Source of the DNA: Escherichia coli
GTDB lineage: Bacteria > Pseudomonadota > Gammaproteobacteria > Enterobacterales > Enterobacteriaceae
Assembly: GCF_044324875.1 (NCBI RefSeq)
Contig: NZ_CP172185.1
DNA: 64,000 nucleotides
Direction: 5' to 3' (one strand)
The notes below the pieces were generated by a model. It was given only the letters and a program-made list of their open reading frames with translations. It had not been told where the DNA came from and did not search any database. The position numbers and the translations under genes are program-made. This document shows, one piece after another, positions 1-45,084 of this stretch (positions are counted from its first letter, which is position 1; each line of letters starts with the position of its first letter).

Positions 1-111
1 GCCCCTGTATATTCCGGCTCTCTGATAATGTGGTCGGATGTGTTGATTAAATAGTTTGTGCGAAAAATGCACCTGTAACCATCAGTTAACAACGGATATA
101 CAGGGGGGACC

Positions 112-282
112 ATGAATGATAAGGGGGTGCCGTTTGATGTGCTCCTGCAAAAGCTGAATGCTGCACGCGCCGCAAGGGAACGTGAGCGCATGAGTAATAA
201 CCCTGTCCCTCCTGAATTACCTCGCCCTGAACATTTTCCGCTTGAGGATTTCATCAGGGGACGAATCCGAACAAAACGATAA
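112..282 (+). CDS. hypothetical small protein (56 aa) in mobile island; C-terminal motif FPLEDFI shared with ORF 526..720
   Basis: ATG at 112, stop TAA at 280-282, translated by hand; below the 60-aa cutoff of the ORF track; no family recognised. Confidence 0.25.
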   Translation: MNDKGVPFDVLLQKLNAARAARERERMSNNPVPPELPRPEHFPLEDFIRGRIRTKR

Positions 283-525
283 CCGCCGCCGTGATATGAG
301 GCATCACGACGCAATGCATTACAGGTGAGCACCATGAACAAATCCATATTATCCCCCACAGTTCTGGACGTAAACACAAAGCAGCGACAGATATTATTAC
401 GCGCCGTCATTAAAGCCAGACACGAGAAATTAAACCAAATCTTAAGATAAGATACGCCGCTACCGCTGTAAGTCTTCATCAGAAACAGAAAACGCCAGAG
501 CAGATGAGCACGGAGGTAACTCTTT

Positions 526-720
526 ATGAAAATAAACGAATCAGGGGAAATTACCGAAGCCAGCGTGGTACGCCAGCGGAGGCGGGAACGACGGGTACGG
601 CCCCCCGCGCCATCCGATAATTTCCCGCTTGAGCGCTTCATCAGTGAACGGCCCCGCATACGCTGGAACGGCACAACCCCATACCCCGAGGAGAGACAGA
701 CAAAAAACAAACAGCGATGA
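526..720 (+). CDS. hypothetical small protein (64 aa), paralog-like to ORF 112..282 (motif FPLERFI)
   Basis: ORF track; shares a ~15-aa C-terminal motif and similar nucleotide sequence with the 112..282 ORF. Confidence 0.3.
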   Translation: MKINESGEITEASVVRQRRRERRVRPPAPSDNFPLERFISERPRIRWNGTTPYPEERQTKNKQR

Positions 721-999
721 TGAAATCTGGAGGCCAATACCATCACCCAGCCAGTCGGGGATTGCTGGCGGGCTTCCTGTTCGCTGGTGGCCCCGATGGT
801 AATAACGCGTGGTTGTGCTGTGCTCAGGGCGATAAAACGCCAGATGTATTTATTCAGGTTGTGCGGGTCCCGCCCTTGCGGGTGTGTGGTATGATTTAAC
901 ATAGCTACCTCGATACGCTTTCTATCGTTGGTGGTTAGAAGCCCCGTTACTGCTCCAACAGTGCGGGGTTTCGTCGTTTCTGCACCTTTCATCAACAAG

Positions 1000-1051
1000 G
1001 TGTTGAACACCAATTTAAGCCTAGGTGTTAAACACGCCAAGTGTTGAACAC
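1000..1051. promoter_or_regulatory. three closely spaced 11-bp palindromes GTGTT-N-AACAC (1000-1010, 1025-1035, 1041-1051), putative operator array
   Basis: Direct reading: gtgttgaacac / gtgttaaacac / gtgttgaacac, each a perfect inverted repeat around one central base, ~50 bp upstream of the small ORF starting at 1101. Confidence 0.5.
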
Positions 1052-1100
1052 TTATTTTTTTCCTGCATACTGCATTTGTTTTTTGTAAGGGGTACACAAC

Positions 1101-1280
1101 ATGGCGACAAAAGCAGTAAACGCAAAATCACAAACAGTTGCGGCAAGGGTTCCGCATGAAGTTATGAACAATGTTGAGGCGGTAAAAATGCCTGGTGAAA
1201 GTACAGGGCAGTTTGTAACAGCAGCATTAAAGCGAGAAGTTGAATACCGCCAGCGCCGCAAGGCCAAAGAATCAGAATAA
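1101..1280 (+). CDS. hypothetical small basic protein (59 aa) in mobile island
   Basis: ATG 1101, TAA 1278-1280, hand translation MATKAVNAKSQTVAARVPHEV...; immediately downstream of the palindrome array. Confidence 0.3.
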   Translation: MATKAVNAKSQTVAARVPHEVMNNVEAVKMPGESTGQFVTAALKREVEYRQRRKAKESE

Positions 1281-1328
1281 TCACTATCAGCGCCGTGGTG
1301 TGAGGTACTGCGGCGCATTGTTTTAAAG

Positions 1329-1529
1329 GTGATAATTATGAATAACCAGGAACTACAAAATAAAGCATTATCAATTATCATGCGCCAGCGTGAGAAAACC
1401 CGCAGGGAAATAAATAAGGCATTAACCCGCACTGAAAATCTTAAAGTTCCTGATAAGTTCGCCCTTGATCCTTTTGTCGAGAAATACCCTCGGCGCTTAA
1501 AAGCAAACAAAAACCGCCCACCTGGCTGA
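1329..1529 (+). CDS. hypothetical small protein (66 aa) in mobile island
   Basis: ORF track; followed by a hairpin plus T-tract at 1621-1648. Confidence 0.3.
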   Translation: MIIMNNQELQNKALSIIMRQREKTRREINKALTRTENLKVPDKFALDPFVEKYPRRLKANKNRPPG

Positions 1530-1620
1530 CAATCCACCAGCAAGCCACCACACTGGACACATTGCCCACCAGCCAGCAAATCGCTATGATGTTCGGGCTT
1601 ATGTTTAGTGTTTTCCCATT

Positions 1621-1650
1621 GGCGACCGCCCCCGGTCGCCTTTGTTTTAT
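1621..1650 (+). terminator. putative intrinsic terminator (stem ggcgaccg / cggtcgcc, then TTTGTTTT)
   Basis: 8-bp GC-rich inverted repeat with 4-nt loop followed by a T-rich tract. Confidence 0.55.
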
Positions 1651-1667
1651 GTGTCATATACTCCCCT

Positions 1668-1877
1668 TTACGCTGCCTTGCCTGAATTAATGCGATCCCG
1701 GCTTTTAACCCATTCCATAACCTCGGACAGCAGCCAACCTACAGAACGCCCACCAAGATTACGGCGAGACGGAAAGCTCCCTTTTTTCTCCAGTTCGTAG
1801 CGTGTAGTGCGACACACTCCAGTTAACTTACGACATTCATCCTCACGGATTACGCGATCTTCATTTATTTCACGCAT
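1668..1877 (-). CDS. alpA: AlpA-family phage/island transcriptional regulator or excisionase-like protein
   Basis: Translation ...IREDECRKLTGVCRTTRYELEKKGSFPSRRNLGGRSVGWLLSEVMEWV matches the AlpA/Xis-type HTH pattern; start chosen at the internal Met (MREINED), the ORF track extends to 1964. Confidence 0.7.
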   Translation of the reverse strand: MREINEDRVIREDECRKLTGVCRTTRYELEKKGSFPSRRNLGGRSVGWLLSEVMEWVKSRDRINSGKAA

Positions 1878-2296
1878 ACAAAAACCTACATAAAAATTAC
1901 GTATATAAACTTTTCTCTTAGCTGTAGATATATGAGATCGGATATTACTTAGATTCTTTTTCACCTCTTAAATTAAAAACACAACCATGCTAAAGGCTTT
2001 GTTCGCTAAGGTTCGTAGAAGCTCGTTAGTGTTTAAAATCGTGTCACGAGTTTTTAAGCGACGCAACAAAAAATGTCGTCATTTGGCATGTCACCTGAAT
2101 TACCTCATTAAAAACAAATAGATAAACCATCAGATGTTGGAACAATCAAGAAACAGAGAATAAGAACTCAGAAGAAGACATTTCAATTTTTTTCGATAGT
2201 TGACACATATAAAGAGAAGATATTTGCAGATATTCCCCGATATTCTAAGATCTATTCACGGCTGTAATCTCTTAAAGAAAAAACAGCCGTAATTTG

Positions 2297-3535
2297 TCAA
2301 GAATTTTGGGGGTAAATTCGCGGGGTCATAACAACGATTTTTTCATCATTGTTCTGGAGAAGCTCGAGACGGTCTACCCATAGATTAAGAGCGTCACGCT
2401 TTGCATCGAGATAACGGGAGTGGTTATAGACGCGTTGCATTCCTGGCATCTGGTGGGCAGTAAGCTGTTCGACAATATGCGGATCCACGCCTAAATCGTT
2501 CAGCATGGTTGTAAATGTGTGCCGGATGTCGTGCAACGACCAGGGGGCTTGATTAATGCGTCTGTGTGCCGTTCTTCCGTACTCTGCTACGGATGATTGC
2601 CCTTTCAGTTCTCCAAGCAATAAGCCCGTGTGCCTGTTCTGCTCCACCAGCTTCATGACGAACGGCAAGATCGCTTCCGGTATTGGCCTGAATATTGCTA
2701 CCTTCGTTTTGCTGTGTTCTTTCGGCACAGTCCAGAGCATTTCTTTAAAATCCCATTCCCGAACCTCGGAGCGTCTTAGCTCAGTGGTACGGCATCCGAA
2801 GACAATCAGAAGGCGAATTAAAGCGCTGTAGTACGGCGGGAAAATTTTTTCATCCAGTGCGCGGAGTAGCTCGCCAAGCTCCTTGTTTGTTAGCACTCGC
2901 TCGCTTATTTCTGCTTTTTTTCCCACATCACCTACGACCATATCATCAAGAACGTTACTGACGGCGTAGCGACGTTTACGGCAGTACTTAAGCGCCTGTT
3001 TGCATACCTGCAACAAAAAGCCGGCTGATACCGGATTACGCTTAGCAAGCTGGTCAAAACAGGCCAGCCAGTGGCGTAGCTCGCATTTATCCAGCGGCAT
3101 AGCACCAATCTGGCTGATTATGTGCTTATTGATACGGCTTTTCAGTGATTCGTGGTCAGTGCGCTTTTCCTTCGCATACGACTCAAGCCAGTAAGTGAGC
3201 GCGTCCTTAACCGTCACGGGGGCTAACGCTTCCTGCACTGTGTGATTAAGCTCATGGCGTGGATTTTTCCCCTCCGCCAGCCAGGCGCGACACTGTGCCG
3301 CTTTTTCCCTGGCTGCTTTCAGGCTCAGATCGGGATAGTTGCCCAGTCTCAGGCGTTCCGGTGATACCTGCCTGCCAGTTCCGGCCCTGTAAGTGAAATA
3401 CCAGGTTAACAGGCCGCTGGTGGAATGTCTTACGCTAAGATTGCCACCGTCATTAAAAAAGGCGTTTTTTGTGGTTGGTGATCCGCTTAATTTTCGTAAA
3501 AGAGTGTCGCTAAGTCTATGAATTGCGCTGCTCAT
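2297..3535 (-). CDS. int: tyrosine-type site-specific recombinase/integrase (P4-like, N-terminal arm-binding domain)
   Basis: 412-aa ORF; C-terminal catalytic region with HDIRHTF ... HQMPGMQRVYNHSRY (R-H-R-Y type signature); N-terminal DUF4102-like arm-binding region. Confidence 0.9.
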   Translation of the reverse strand: MSSAIHRLSDTLLRKLSGSPTTKNAFFNDGGNLSVRHSTSGLLTWYFTYRAGTGRQVSPERLRLGNYPDLSLKAAREKAAQCRAWLAEGKNPRHELNHTVQEALAPVTVKDALTYWLESYAKEKRTDHESLKSRINKHIISQIGAMPLDKCELRHWLACFDQLAKRNPVSAGFLLQVCKQALKYCRKRRYAVSNVLDDMVVGDVGKKAEISERVLTNKELGELLRALDEKIFPPYYSALIRLLIVFGCRTTELRRSEVREWDFKEMLWTVPKEHSKTKVAIFRPIPEAILPFVMKLVEQNRHTGLLLGELKGQSSVAEYGRTAHRRINQAPWSLHDIRHTFTTMLNDLGVDPHIVEQLTAHQMPGMQRVYNHSRYLDAKRDALNLWVDRLELLQNNDEKIVVMTPRIYPQNS

Positions 3536-3938
3536 GTTTCGCGTTTCCGGTCATCAAAATTAACTACACCATTGACTACACCGTGCATCGTACAAGGGCA
3601 AACCGTGACGAACAAGAGCGAACAAGTAAAACAAAATTTTCCTTTATAATCATAGCGATGAATGCACACAAAACACTACCACGAACACCCGCGAACACTA
3701 GATGATAAATAACTATCATCTATCGTTGGCATCAGGACATCTGTCACATTCCTGTCAATAGCGTTAACTGCTTCAAATTTTTGATTCATACCTGCCCCCT
3801 GGCCCCTGTCAAATGCTTGACGGCTCGCCCTAATTCTCTAAATTGTATTTCTAGAGTTGGCGAGGTTTTGAACAGCCCCCTCTCTGACCCCGGTTTATTC
3901 CATCTTACTTGTATAAGATTTGCGAAGGATGTCGAAGC

Positions 3939-4163
3939 ATGGAAAAGGGTACTGTTAAGTGGTTCAACAATGCCAAAGGGTTTGGTTTCATCTGCCCTGA
4001 AGGCGGCGGCGAAGATATTTTCGCTCATTATTCCACCATTCAGATGGATGGTTACAGAACGCTAAAAGCTGGACAATCCGTTCAGTTTGATGTCCACCAG
4101 GGGCCAAAAGGCAATCACGCCAGTGTTATTGTGCCCGTCGAAGTAGAAGCGGCAGTCGCATAG
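3939..4163 (+). CDS. cspD: cold-shock-like protein CspD
   Basis: MEKGTVKWFNNAKGFGFI... cold-shock domain; 74 aa from the internal Met; ORF track begins at 3909. Confidence 0.95.
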   Translation: MEKGTVKWFNNAKGFGFICPEGGGEDIFAHYSTIQMDGYRTLKAGQSVQFDVHQGPKGNHASVIVPVEVEAAVA

Positions 4164-4195
4164 CTCTTCTGTCTCATTGTGTACATCCTAAAGGC

Positions 4196-4228
4196 AAAAT
4201 GCCAGCCCGATCGGCTGGCATTTTTATC
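4196..4228. terminator. bidirectional intrinsic terminator between convergent cspD and macB
   Basis: Palindrome tgccagccgatcggctggca flanked by an A-run upstream and a T-run downstream. Confidence 0.6.
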
Positions 4229-4235
4229 TCAAAAA

Positions 4236-6182
4236 TTACTCTCGTGCCAGAGCATCTACTGGATCCAGTCGTGCCGCATTTCGTGCGGGTAACCAGCCAA
4301 ATAAAATCCCGGTGACCGTCGAGCAGAGAAACGCCAGCAGCAGCGCCAACGGTGAAAAACCAATCTCCCAGCCGGGTAAGAAAAGCTGTAAGGTGAAAGC
4401 AATTAACAATGACAGTGTTATTCCCAACGCGCCACCGACCAGGCAAACCAGTACGGCTTCGATCAGGAACTGTTGCAAAACATCGCTTGCTCGCGCACCT
4501 ACAGCCATGCGAATGCCAATTTCCCGCGTCCGCTCGGTCACTGACACCAGCATAATATTCATTACACCAATACCGCCCACCACCAGCGAAATCACCGCCA
4601 CCAGCGTCAGAAACAGTTGTAAAGTACGTGTGGTCTTTTCAACGGTTTTCAAGACGCCGTCCATGTTCCAGGTAAAGAAATCCTTTTTTCCGTGGCGCAG
4701 TGAAAGTAAACGCATGAGTTGCTGTTCCGCCTCAGCGCTGTCAAATCCTTCTTTCACCCTGACAGTAATGGAGTTCAGCCACGACTGGCCCATAACTCGC
4801 CCGGACATCGTGCTGTAAGGTAGCCAGACACGCAGCACTTTACTGCTACCAAACATCGACTGTTTTTCTTCCGCCACACCAATGACTCTGGCGGGCATAT
4901 TGCCGACCAGAATCACCTCGCCAACCACATCTGCTTTATGGGGGAAAAGCTGGCGGCGAGTATTACTGTCGAGAACTACGACCTGCGCACGACCGTTCAG
5001 CTGCTCCTGATTAAAGGTGTTCCCTTCACTGAAGGTCATGCCATAGACATTAAAATAATCGCCGCTCACGCCATTGGCACTGGCAGCCACATCAACATTG
5101 TTATAACGCAGGCGCAGGTTTTGCGAGACGGCAGGTGTGGCTGAGGCGACCCACGGTTGTTTTTGGATGGCGATTAAGTCATCGTACTTCAGCGCCTGCT
5201 GATATTGCGGATCGTCATCGCCAAAATCTTTCCCGGGATAGACATCAATAGTATTCGTACCAATAGAACGAATATCCGCCAGCACCATTTGTTTGGCGGC
5301 GTCACCCACCACGACAATGGAAACCACCGACGCAATACCGATAATAATCCCCAGCATGGTCAGTAAAGTACGCATTTTATTCGCTGCCAGCGCCCGCCAT
5401 GCCATCGTCAGCGCCTCGTTAAAACCGCTGACAAACTGCCGCCAGCCAGACGCCGTGTTGACAGCAGGTTCCGTCCCGCCAGCAACATTCACTTTTTCAA
5501 TGGCGGGAGGATTGCGCACAATTTCGCTGTCGCGAATTTCGATCACCCGCTCGGCCTGAGCAGCGACCTGCGGATCGTGGGTGACGATAATCACCGTATG
5601 CCCGCGATCGCGCAGCTGATGCAGGATCGCCATCACCTCTTCGCCAGAATGGCTGTCCAGTGCGCCGGTCGGTTCATCGGCAAGAATTACCTGACCGCCG
5701 TTCATCAATGCCCGCGCGATGCTGACGCGCTGTTGCTGACCACCCGAAAGCTGTGCCGGATAATACTCTGTACGGTCTTCCAGCCCCAGTCGTTGCAGCA
5801 ACTCCTGGGCGCGAAGCAGCCGCTGTTTCCGCTCAAGACCGGCATAGACGGCGGGTACTTCAACGTTCTGCTCGGCGGTTAAATGCGAAAGCAAATGGTA
5901 ACGCTGGAAAATAAAGCCGAAATGCTCGCGGCGCAGTTGCGCCAGCGCATCGGCGTCCAGTGTGGCAACATCCTGACCGGCGACGCGATAGGTGCCGCTG
6001 GTGGCCTTATCCAGGCAGCCGAGAATATTCATCAGGGTCGATTTGCCGGAACCCGAAGCGCCGACAATCGCCACCATCTCACCAGCATAAATATCGAGGG
6101 TGATGCCCTTCAGCACCTCAACCTGCTCATCACCGGCAGGATAGCTGCGACGAATATCCTTTAATTCGAGCAAGGGCGTCAT
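4236..6182 (-). CDS. macB: macrolide export ABC transporter ATP-binding/permease protein MacB
   Basis: 648 aa; Walker [13 protein letters not shown] signature [10 protein letters not shown]-terminal FtsX-like permease segments. Confidence 0.95.
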
Positions 6183-21925: not shown

Positions 21926-22135
21926 GATCGATCTCCTTGTTTGTTAAGCCTTCGATCTCTAAAGCATTATCGGACTGATATGCCATGTTGGGAAGAAGGT
22001 TTTGATCAGTTTAGGAAATCATCTCATTGTGTCAAAAACACCCACTTAAGTCTTTACGATTATCCGTTGCATAACCCGATATTGGTTTCATTATAGGGTA
22101 CCGCTTACCTGTCTTATTATGTTGCACCAACAACA

Positions 22136-44986: not shown

Positions 44987-45065
44987 GCCACTGCTTTTCT
45001 TTGATGTCCCCATTTTGTGGAGCCCATCAACCCCGCCATTTCGGTTCAAGGTTGGTGGGTTTTTT
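44987..45065 (+). ncRNA. rybB: RybB small regulatory RNA (sigma-E dependent, Hfq-binding)
   Basis: gccactgcttttctttgatgtcccc...ggttcaaggttggtgggtttttt matches my recollection of RybB including the 5' seed and terminator hairpin plus U-tail; located between ybjL and rcdA as in K-12. Confidence 0.85.
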
Positions 45066-45084
45066 GTTGCCTATAATTTATCTA

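What the first reader, a model, noticed from the sequence alone, without database searches (positions are those of the whole stretch)
1..3908. Edge of an integrase-bearing mobile island abutting cspD
A P4-like tyrosine integrase (2297..3535), an AlpA-like regulator (1668..1877) and several small ORFs occupy the position where, by my recollection of K-12 gene order, clpS-clpA lie next to cspD. The integrase 5' end faces a ~370-bp junction region upstream of cspD in which I could not recognise any tRNA-like attachment site. The island continues beyond the window start, so its cargo and true att site are unknown; an insertion this close to cspD could also alter cspD regulation.
Basis: partly seen in the sequence, partly recalled or inferred. 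Interest (0 to 1): 0.6.

Follow-up and report, generated by a model that had tools for sequence, protein, structure and literature searches.

The report
Known phage-satellite island beside cspD
The first 3.7 kb of the window is the integrase end of a roughly 10.6-kb phage satellite (a PICI) sitting in an already published attachment site between cspD and clpS, so it is a real but ordinary mobile element.

Summary
Window 2297-3535 (-) encodes an intact tyrosine integrase with a P4-type arm-binding domain, and 1668-1877 (-) encodes an AlpA regulator.

Alignment to the K-12 empty site puts the island/backbone junction at window 3702-3723. This is a 22-bp imperfect direct repeat whose invariant core is ATAACTATCAT. 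The core overlaps the stop codon of the small gene yljB and lies 216 bp upstream of the cspD start codon.

Genomes identical to the window over 1-4300 (apart from two 1-bp gaps) show a 10,580-bp island. It runs int, alpA, Icd-like, DUF4222, primase, SSB, PerC, ProQ/FinO, TerS, and ends 85 bp upstream of clpS. clpS-clpA are displaced, not lost.

The same core (ATGATAGTTAT) and location (cspD-clpS) are listed by Fillol-Salom et al. 2018 for the PICIs EcCIIHE3034 and EcCI18098. Here Int is 95% identical and AlpA 100% identical to EcCIIHE3034.

So this is a mosaic member of a described Gram-negative PICI family at its described site, present in at least 364 of 5,426 complete E. coli genomes. No tRNA is involved. 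Any effect on cspD regulation remains untested.

Minor extras: candidate arm sites, three operator-like palindromes, a counter-strand cassette of paralogous small ORFs, and two window-specific 1-bp deletions.

The parts
1..3701 (.). Int-proximal 3.7 kb of a roughly 10.6-kb PICI-type island; the rest lies beyond the window start.
   Evidence: The K-12 empty-site alignment and the population-wide homology break at 3702. The full island is seen in L001 and L009.
2297..3535 (-). Tyrosine integrase, 412 aa, with an arm-binding N-terminal domain and a catalytic domain.
   Evidence: Pfam and PHROG matches. 393 of 412 residues are identical to EcCIIHE3034 Int. The closest phage integrase is only 47.7% identical.
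1668..1877 (-). AlpA-family regulator, 69 aa.
   Evidence: Pfam PF05930 at 4.5e-16. 100% identical to EcCIIHE3034 AlpA.
1338..1529 (+). Small ORF of 63 aa on the opposite strand, a member of a paralogous small-protein family with an F[AP]L[ED]xF motif. A terminator-like hairpin follows at 1621-1640.
   Evidence: PGAP CDS in L001 and L009. 57% identical to a homologue in L010. Family alignment; hairpin.
1101..1280 (+). YlcI/YnfO family small protein, 59 aa.
   Evidence: NCBIfam NF041551 at 2e-16 and PHROG 949.
1000..1051 (.). Three 11-bp palindromes GTGTTNAACAC in the divergent interval between the Icd-like gene (-) and ylcI (+). These are candidate operators.
   Evidence: 3 matches against 0.02 expected in 64 kb. 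Conserved in EcCIIHE3034 and L009.
718..991 (-). Icd-like / PHROG 6196 domain gene, with ATG at 991. The frame stays open through the window start. PGAP calls it as a 477-aa ORF in TUM1886 from an upstream start at about window 1102, which a 1-bp deletion at 1054 closes in the window.
   Evidence: NCBIfam NF033153 at 1.8e-13 and PHROG 6196 at 2e-44 over residues 44-128. Mostly third-position synonymous substitutions in L004.
526..720 (+). Small ORF of 64 aa preceded by GGAGG, a paralogue of the F[AP]L[ED]xF family.
334..450 (+). Small ORF of 38 aa. It is a truncated relative of a 67-aa ORF annotated in L010, and a 58-bp conserved leader precedes it.
   Evidence: 44% identity over 34 aa with a conserved Met start. 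Leader at 268-325 is 84.5% identical.
112..282 (+). Small ORF of 56 aa, a paralogue of the F[AP]L[ED]xF family.
   Evidence: The identical protein P0137 is annotated in some NCBI records. Family alignment.
3559..3582 (+). Tandem pair of 12-mers ATTAACTACACC / ATTGACTACACC, candidate arm-type Int binding sites 119 bp from the core.
   Evidence: The only other copies in 44 kb are a second tandem pair 67 bp inside the clpS-side junction: 4 found against 0.22 expected. Conserved in EcCIIHE3034.
3702..3723 (.). Int-proximal att repeat ATGATAAATAACTATCATCTAT. The crossover must lie within ATAACTATCAT.
   Evidence: The K-12 attB and the clpS-side copy differ from it at one flanking position each. The core is the reverse complement of the published ATGATAGTTAT.
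3676..3789 (-). yljB small-protein gene. Its stop codon overlaps the att core. In this window a 1-bp deletion at 3735 shifts the frame after codon 18, giving 37 aa instead of 24.
   Evidence: None of 5,423 genomes carries the deletion.
3817..3844 (+). Promoter-like site (TTGACG, 16 nt, TAAATT) upstream of cspD, entirely in backbone DNA.
   Evidence: Consensus scan only.
3939..4163 (+). cspD, a backbone gene 216 bp from the att repeat.

Best explanation
Window 1-3723 is the integrase-proximal end of a phage-inducible chromosomal island (a Gram-negative PICI of the E. coli 'EcCI' type). It is integrated at the PICI-specific chromosomal site between cspD/yljB and clpS.

Shown here:
- An intact Int and an AlpA regulator.
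- A 22-bp imperfect direct repeat flanking a 10,580-bp insert in genomes that carry the identical end.
- Crossover confined to the 11-bp core ATAACTATCAT, which overlaps the yljB stop codon and leaves yljB intact in relatives.
- Paired 12-bp repeats in both arms.
- A cargo of Icd-like, DUF4222, primase, SSB, PerC, ProQ/FinO-like and TerS genes, with no virion or lysis genes.

Inferred by analogy with EcCICFT073 and EcCIIHE3034 (PMC6092414):
- A helper phage induces alpA.
- AlpA switches on the rightward island operon.
- Int excises the island by recombination between the two att copies, using the arm sites.
- The primase replicates the circle.
- The island's own TerS diverts the helper's headful packaging machinery to island DNA.
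- Int then reintegrates the island at the same 22-bp site in a new host.
For: - Int and AlpA domains are confirmed.
- K-12 sequence on both sides meets in a 22-bp overlap, and the att sequences are explicit.
- About 5,000 genomes match the junction probe only from window 3702 onward, whereas 364 carry the occupied junction.
- The whole island is seen in TUM1886 and Br_112_kylling with the same architecture, and PHROG assignments cover primase, SSB, PerC-like and TerS.
- Table S1 of PMC6092414 lists EcCIIHE3034 (NC_017628 920272-930825, 10.5 kb) and EcCI18098 with att ATGATAGTTAT at cspD-clpS.
- The IHE3034 locus has identical att variants, arm repeats and palindromes. Int is 95.4% identical and AlpA 100% identical.
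- No phage in 50,697 records has an integrase more than 48% identical.
- The island end is at least 99.9% identical in five genomes whose flanking backbones differ from the window by 0.6-1.3%. This indicates horizontal spread.
Against: - Only 3.7 kb of the island is in the window. The rest is inferred from genomes identical over 1-4300, and the window's own genome is not among the 5,426 complete genomes (best match 99.4% over 12 kb).
- No helper phage, induction or packaging was tested.
- In the 2018 study EcCIIHE3034 itself transferred only at very low frequency from its native strain (Table 1; text). Mobility of this lineage is therefore weakly documented.
- Several small genes lie on the opposite strand, at odds with the 'unidirectional' description of Gram-negative PICIs.
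Confidence: 0.9

Rival explanations
1. It is a P4-like satellite: P4-type integrase, AlpA/Vis-like protein and alpha-type primase, using P2-like helpers and Sid/Psu/Delta functions.
For: The integrase has the P4-type Arm-DNA-bind_3 domain. An AlpA homologue is present. Relatives carry a large primase.
Against: No sid, psu, delta or epsilon homologues appear in the annotation or PHROG results for the full island in L001 and L009. A TerS is present, which is not part of the P4 gene set as I know it. The att site and AlpA allele are those listed for PICIs. PMC6092414 states that P4 and PICIs share only distant Int, AlpA and Pri homology.
Confidence: 0.04
2. It is an immobile remnant, a decayed cryptic prophage or island fixed at this locus, whose int and alpA no longer function.
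For: EcCIIHE3034 showed almost no transfer in the 2018 test. The Icd-like ORF lacks its usual stop and runs on, and there are mosaic junctions. The window has two private 1-bp deletions.
Against: Int is full-length and retains stretches that look like the conserved catalytic boxes. Both att copies and all four arm repeats are intact in relatives. The island is at least 99.9% identical across five different backbones, and the site is occupied in only about 7% of genomes, by several mosaic variants. That pattern fits ongoing gain and loss.
Confidence: 0.05
3. It is a conjugative or mobilisable island (ICE/IME), or a full temperate prophage using this site.
For: A tyrosine integrase next to an AlpA-like excision regulator also occurs in ICEs and prophages.
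Against: The insert is 10.6 kb with no relaxase, type IV secretion, capsid, tail or lysis genes in relatives.
Confidence: 0.01

Closest known systems
EcCIIHE3034 (and EcCI18098), E. coli PICIs at cspD-clpS (Fillol-Salom et al. 2018, PMC6092414, Table S1)
   Same: Same chromosomal site and the same att core (ATGATAGTTAT = reverse complement of ATAACTATCAT). Identical 22-bp att variants, arm repeats and GTGTTNAACAC palindromes. Int 95.4% identical and AlpA 100% identical. The DUF4222-primase-SSB block is 88% identical at DNA level. Size is about 10.5 kb.
   Different: The IHE3034 island carries genes annotated as major capsid and head-decoration proteins before terS. Here that module is replaced by PerC-family and ProQ/FinO-like genes, and only the first 314 bp of terS aligns (84% identity). 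Window 1-731 (the rare segment with the small + strand ORFs and a PHROG 2512 domain further left) is absent from IHE3034.
EcCICFT073, the experimentally characterised Gram-negative PICI
   Same: Same int-alpA-replication layout. AlpA is the activator needed for induction and transfer, Int and att are functional, and Pri-Rep and ori are functional.
   Different: EcCICFT073 has no TerS and is packaged through cos sites by lambda and phi80-type helpers. The island here encodes a TerS, so headful (pac) helpers are expected. Its att site is not this one.
Satellite phage P4
   Same: Arm-binding tyrosine integrase, an AlpA/Vis-type small HTH protein, a large primase, and dependence on a helper phage.
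   Different: No Sid, Psu, Delta or Epsilon functions. The paper describes the two as independent lineages.
SaPIs (Gram-positive PICIs)
   Same: Satellite logic: int, a replication module, TerS-mediated hijacking of helper packaging, and dedicated att sites.
   Different: SaPIs are held by an Stl repressor that helper proteins inactivate, and they are transcribed divergently. Gram-negative PICIs use AlpA activation, and no repressor is known.

Membership tests
Gram-negative PICI (EcCI type) | Tyrosine integrase at one end, with the element bounded by direct att repeats. | tested here: met
   Int is confirmed. 22-bp repeats flank a 10,580-bp insert in L001 and L009, and the int-proximal copy is at window 3702-3723.
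Gram-negative PICI (EcCI type) | A chromosomal att site specific to PICIs and not used by prophages. | tested here: met
   The core and location are identical to the published PICI site cspD-clpS. No phage integrase is more than 48% identical. I did not survey what every occupant of this site is in all 364 genomes.
Gram-negative PICI (EcCI type) | An AlpA-family master regulator adjacent to int. | tested here: met
   PF05930 at 4.5e-16. Identical to the EcCIIHE3034 AlpA allele.
Gram-negative PICI (EcCI type) | A replication module (primase / Pri-Rep with ori). | tested here: met
   A 582-aa primase matching PHROG 864 at 1e-168, plus SSB, in L001. This lies outside the window and is inferred for the window's own genome. 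The ori was not mapped.
Gram-negative PICI (EcCI type) | No phage structural or lysis genes; size about 8-15 kb. | tested here: met
   10,580 bp, with TerS the only packaging gene.
Gram-negative PICI (EcCI type) | Unidirectional transcription from int/alpA onward. | tested here: inconclusive
   int, alpA, Icd-like, primase and the genes through terS are co-oriented. ylcI, the 63-aa ORF and three further small ORFs lie on the other strand. There are no expression data.
Gram-negative PICI (EcCI type) | Helper-phage-dependent induction, packaging and high-frequency transfer. | not testable with these tools
   This needs experiments. The only indirect evidence is that the island is identical across different backbones.
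P4-like satellite | Capsid-size and helper-control genes sid, psu, delta and epsilon. | tested here: not met
   None appears in the annotation or PHROG hits of the full island in relatives.
Capsid-forming PICI (cf-PICI) | The element's own capsid, portal, protease and head-completion genes. | tested here: not met
   This variant has no capsid genes. The sibling EcCIIHE3034 has genes annotated as capsid and decoration proteins only.
tRNA-targeting genomic island | Integration into the 3' end of a tRNA or tmRNA gene. | tested here: not met
   No tRNA in the window. The att overlaps the yljB stop codon, and serW lies beyond clpA.

The most novel reading that the evidence does not exclude
The counter-strand part of the alpA-to-primase interval may be an undescribed control or interference module of Gram-negative PICIs, for which no repressor is known. 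It would consist of a cassette of tandem paralogous small proteins (56-82 aa, motif F[AP]L[ED]xF followed by a basic tail), with three or four copies here at 112-282, 334-450 (truncated), 526-720 and 1338-1529. Alongside these sit ylcI and three GTGTTNAACAC operator-like palindromes. On this reading, the long 'Icd-like' ORFs annotated across the interval are largely antisense artefacts.
Probability: 0.25. Interest if true: 0.4.

Novelty: new member of a known kind. Interest (0 to 1): 0.12.

Why it matters
It matters little beyond correct annotation. The region should be labelled as a PICI (phage satellite) at the cspD-clpS att site, not as a prophage remnant or an unknown island. Relatives of this element carry PerC-family and ProQ/FinO-like genes and a DUF4222 protein. 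The PICI literature links PerC homologues to activation of the LEE virulence locus, so the cargo is of some interest for strain typing. The insertion sits 85 bp upstream of clpS and 216 bp upstream of cspD, so it could be used to ask whether satellite insertion changes expression of either gene. Nothing here shows that it does.

Tried and rejected
- **tRNA or ncRNA att site.** ARAGORN and Rfam found none in 1-4300. The only hit there is a sub-threshold cspA-like match over cspD, so this idea was rejected.
- **Phage origin of the rare segment 1-735.** blastn and tblastn against 50,697 phage records gave no match.
- **Which strand of 1-735 is coding, by substitution pattern.** The only longer homologues (L004, L005) are 99% identical. 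They carry a single substitution in the disputed stretch, so the test has no power.
- **Homologues of the - strand translation.** A search of 1.84 billion representatives with the middle of the - strand ORF found only itself and two weak hits. Pfam found nothing in the 477-aa ORF.
- **Homologues of the + strand ORF.** The 64-aa + strand ORF alone found nothing in the word-indexed database. The paralogue family was recognised only after comparison with L010.
- **Insertion versus deletion around the Icd-like ORF.** I considered that an approximately 800-bp mobile element had inserted into an Icd-PHROG 2512 fusion gene, by comparison with L007. I found no terminal repeats, and L007 looks like a deletion derivative instead.
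- **Defence-system content.** PADLOC found nothing meaningful.
- **CRP sites of cspD.** The primary paper (PMC3993361) is not held, so positions of the cspD CRP sites rest on my memory only.
Full report
**What is in the sequence**

Window 2297-3535 (-) is a 412-aa ORF with an N-terminal Arm-DNA-bind_3 domain and a C-terminal Phage_integrase domain (PHROG 1 at 1e-67). It retains stretches that look like the conserved catalytic boxes of tyrosine recombinases (positions; the assignment rests on my knowledge of the family). Window 1668-1877 (-) is a 69-aa AlpA-family protein (PF05930 at 4.5e-16).

cspD lies at 3939-4163 (+), followed by macB, macA and ybjX. In K-12 the order is ybjX, macA, macB, cspD, yljB, clpS, clpA, serW. 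No tRNA or tmRNA gene is found anywhere in the window.

**Where the island ends**

I aligned the K-12 cspD-clpS interval to a complete genome, TUM1886 (locus L001). L001 is identical to window 1-4300 apart from two single-base gaps. K-12 DNA matches on both sides of a large insert, and the two matches overlap by 22 bp.

The three att sequences are:
- K-12 attB: ATGATAGATAACTATCATCTAT (NC_000913 922807-922828)
- clpS-side junction: ATGATAGATAACTATCATTTAT
- int-side junction: ATGATAAATAACTATCATCTAT, at window 3702-3723

Each junction copy differs from attB at one flanking position, on opposite sides. Strand exchange must therefore fall inside the shared 11-mer ATAACTATCAT. attB is also an inverted repeat (ATGATAG, then ATAA, then CTATCAT), as expected for core-type recombinase sites.

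A population check gives the same boundary. With window 3400-3900 as probe, 364 of 5,426 complete E. coli genomes carry the occupied junction. The others match only from probe position 303, which is window 3702. This count is a lower bound, because diverged integrases would be missed.

The att core overlaps the stop codon of the 24-codon gene yljB, and the repeat restores the gene. PGAP annotates an identical YljB in island-bearing genomes.

**What the island is**

In TUM1886 and in Br_112_kylling the insert is 10,580 bp. Starting from the int end it carries:
- int and alpA
- two small genes on the opposite strand (a 63-aa ORF and ylcI/ynfO)
- an Icd-like gene
- a DUF4222 gene and a 582-aa primase
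- a small ORF and SSB
- a PerC-family gene and a ProQ/FinO-like gene
- a terminase small subunit and a 94-aa ORF

About 0.9 kb of non-coding DNA then runs to the second att copy, 85 bp upstream of the clpS start codon. clpS-clpA are intact on the far side. There are no capsid, tail, lysis, relaxase or secretion genes.

This is the gene set, size and layout of a Gram-negative phage-inducible chromosomal island. The criteria are given in PMC6092414.

**It is already described**

Table S1 of that paper lists EcCIIHE3034 (NC_017628.1 920272-930825, 10.5 kb) and EcCI18098. Both have att 'ATGATAGTTAT' and location 'cspD-clpS'. That att is the reverse complement of the core I derived independently.

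I fetched the IHE3034 locus (L003). It has the same two 22-bp att variants, the same arm repeats and the same palindromes. The window's Int is 393/412 identical to the IHE3034 Int, and the AlpA proteins are identical.

The islands are mosaic relatives:

| Block | DNA identity to IHE3034 |
|---|---|
| int-alpA | 94.9% |
| ylcI-Icd | 90.7% |
| DUF4222-primase-SSB | 88% |
| terS (first 314 bp only) | 84% |
| clpS-side flank and island end (794-bp alignment, clpS to L001 13494) | 98% |

IHE3034 has genes annotated as capsid and decoration proteins where this island has PerC and ProQ/FinO-like genes. Window 1-731 has no counterpart in IHE3034.

No phage record encodes an integrase more than 48% identical. 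This fits the reported exclusivity of PICI att sites.

**Mobility**

The island part of the window is identical to TUM1886 apart from one single-base deletion, and a second deletion lies in the flanking yljB. The chromosome from 4409 onward differs at 324 positions over the aligned 24.3 kb. The same island end, at least 99.9% identical, sits in five genomes whose backbones are 98.7-99.4% identical to the window.

The site also holds several other mosaic variants (L007 and L010). This pattern indicates horizontal spread and modular exchange. Actual induction and transfer were not and cannot be tested here. The 2018 study found only very low transfer of EcCIIHE3034 from its native strain (Table 1; text).

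**Likely mechanism (inferred from EcCICFT073 work)**

1. A helper phage induces alpA.
2. AlpA activates the co-oriented operon.
3. Int recombines the two att copies.
4. The primase replicates the excised circle.
5. The island TerS redirects a headful-packaging helper to island DNA.
6. Int reintegrates the island at the yljB-clpS site in a new host.

As candidate arm-type Int sites I found a tandem pair ATTAACTACACC / ATTGACTACACC at window 3559-3582. A second tandem pair lies 67 bp inside the clpS-side junction. These are the only four copies in 44 kb, against 0.22 expected.

**Effect on neighbours**

The insertion point is 216 bp upstream of the cspD ATG and 93 bp upstream of a promoter-like TTGACG-16-TAAATT site at 3817-3844. 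CRP regulation of cspD is reported (reference 54 cited in PMC9765468). The primary paper is not held, so I cannot place its sites.

The insertion is also 85 bp upstream of clpS, which is at least as likely to be affected. Whether expression of either gene changes is untested.

**Side observations in 1-1700**

- **Operator-like palindromes.** Three GTGTTNAACAC palindromes (1000-1051; 0.02 expected) lie between the Icd-like gene and ylcI. They look like operators.
- **A long - strand ORF of doubtful reality.** PGAP annotates a 477-aa 'Icd-like' ORF across window 1-1102 in TUM1886. Only residues 44-128 (Icd-like, PHROG 6196) and 355-476 (PHROG 2512) have homologues.
- **Small + strand ORFs in the intervening stretch.** These are at 112-282, 334-450 and 526-720, with purine-rich, Shine-Dalgarno-like stretches just upstream (my reading). 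Together with the 63-aa ORF at 1338-1529 and four ORFs annotated in another variant at this site (L010), they form a paralogous family. The family shares an F[AP]L[ED]xF motif followed by a basic tail. It is restricted to E. coli hypothetical proteins and has no Pfam domain.
- **My reading of the two.** The + strand ORFs are probably real genes and much of the long - strand ORF is probably an annotation artefact. Both frames are conserved against L008, and the substitution test had no power, so this remains open.
- **Rarity.** The segment 1-735 occurs in only 9 of 5,426 complete genomes.

**Verdict**

The element is a member of a published satellite family at its published attachment site. Interest is low.

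Noticed in passing
window 3735 (within yljB, 3676-3789 -): A single-base deletion (CAGCGAC to CAGGAC) relative to K-12 and every close relative. None of 5,423 E. coli genomes has it. It shifts the YljB frame after codon 18, giving 37 aa instead of 24. It could be a private mutation or a sequencing error. From memory only, it may lie near the distal CRP site of cspD.
   Followed up: partly
window 1054: A T8-to-T7 homopolymer difference from the otherwise identical TUM1886 sequence. It closes the upstream extension of the long - strand 'Icd-like' ORF, and lies in the divergent regulatory interval.
   Followed up: partly
window 112-282, 334-450, 526-720, 1338-1529 (+); L010 5067-6056: A family of tandem paralogous small ORFs (56-82 aa) with an F[AP]L[ED]xF motif and a basic tail, encoded opposite to int/alpA/primase in PICIs at this site. 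Members are E. coli-only hypothetical proteins with no Pfam domain.
   Followed up: partly
window 1-1102 (-); L001 19670-21103: A - strand reading frame stays open for 477 codons across the antisense of those small ORFs. PGAP names it 'Icd-like protein'. Many E. coli 'Icd-like' entries are 300-660 aa but share only the roughly 85-aa Icd-like domain. Annotation run-on looks likely.
   Followed up: partly
window 1000-1010, 1025-1035, 1041-1051: Three GTGTTNAACAC palindromes (0.02 expected in the window) between the divergent Icd-like and ylcI genes. They are conserved in EcCIIHE3034.
   Followed up: partly
window 1-735: A rare segment, present in only 9 of 5,426 complete E. coli genomes, several of them poultry isolates. 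In strain LH50-c it occurs at two chromosomal places.
   Followed up: partly
L001 1-9716 (TUM1886, beyond clpA; outside the window): A second integrase-bearing island lies on the far side of clpA, where K-12 has serW. Its genes are annotated YfjI, inovirus-type Gp2, a TOTE-system primase fragment and a large AAA protein. It is absent from Br_112_kylling.
   Followed up: no
window 4409 onward: The window is identical to TUM1886 up to 4408, apart from the two 1-bp deletions. From 4409 the two differ at about 1.3% of positions. The identical tract therefore runs about 700 bp past the att site into cspD and the macB 3' end. This could reflect homologous recombination of flanking DNA rather than pure site-specific integration.
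   Followed up: no
window 22001-24000: A 2-kb stretch at 33% G+C. It corresponds to a truncated 'pentapeptide repeat-containing protein' pseudogene in relatives.
   Followed up: no
window 44990-45068 (+): A RybB sRNA gene at 104 bits, the only Rfam match in the window above its gathering score.
   Followed up: no
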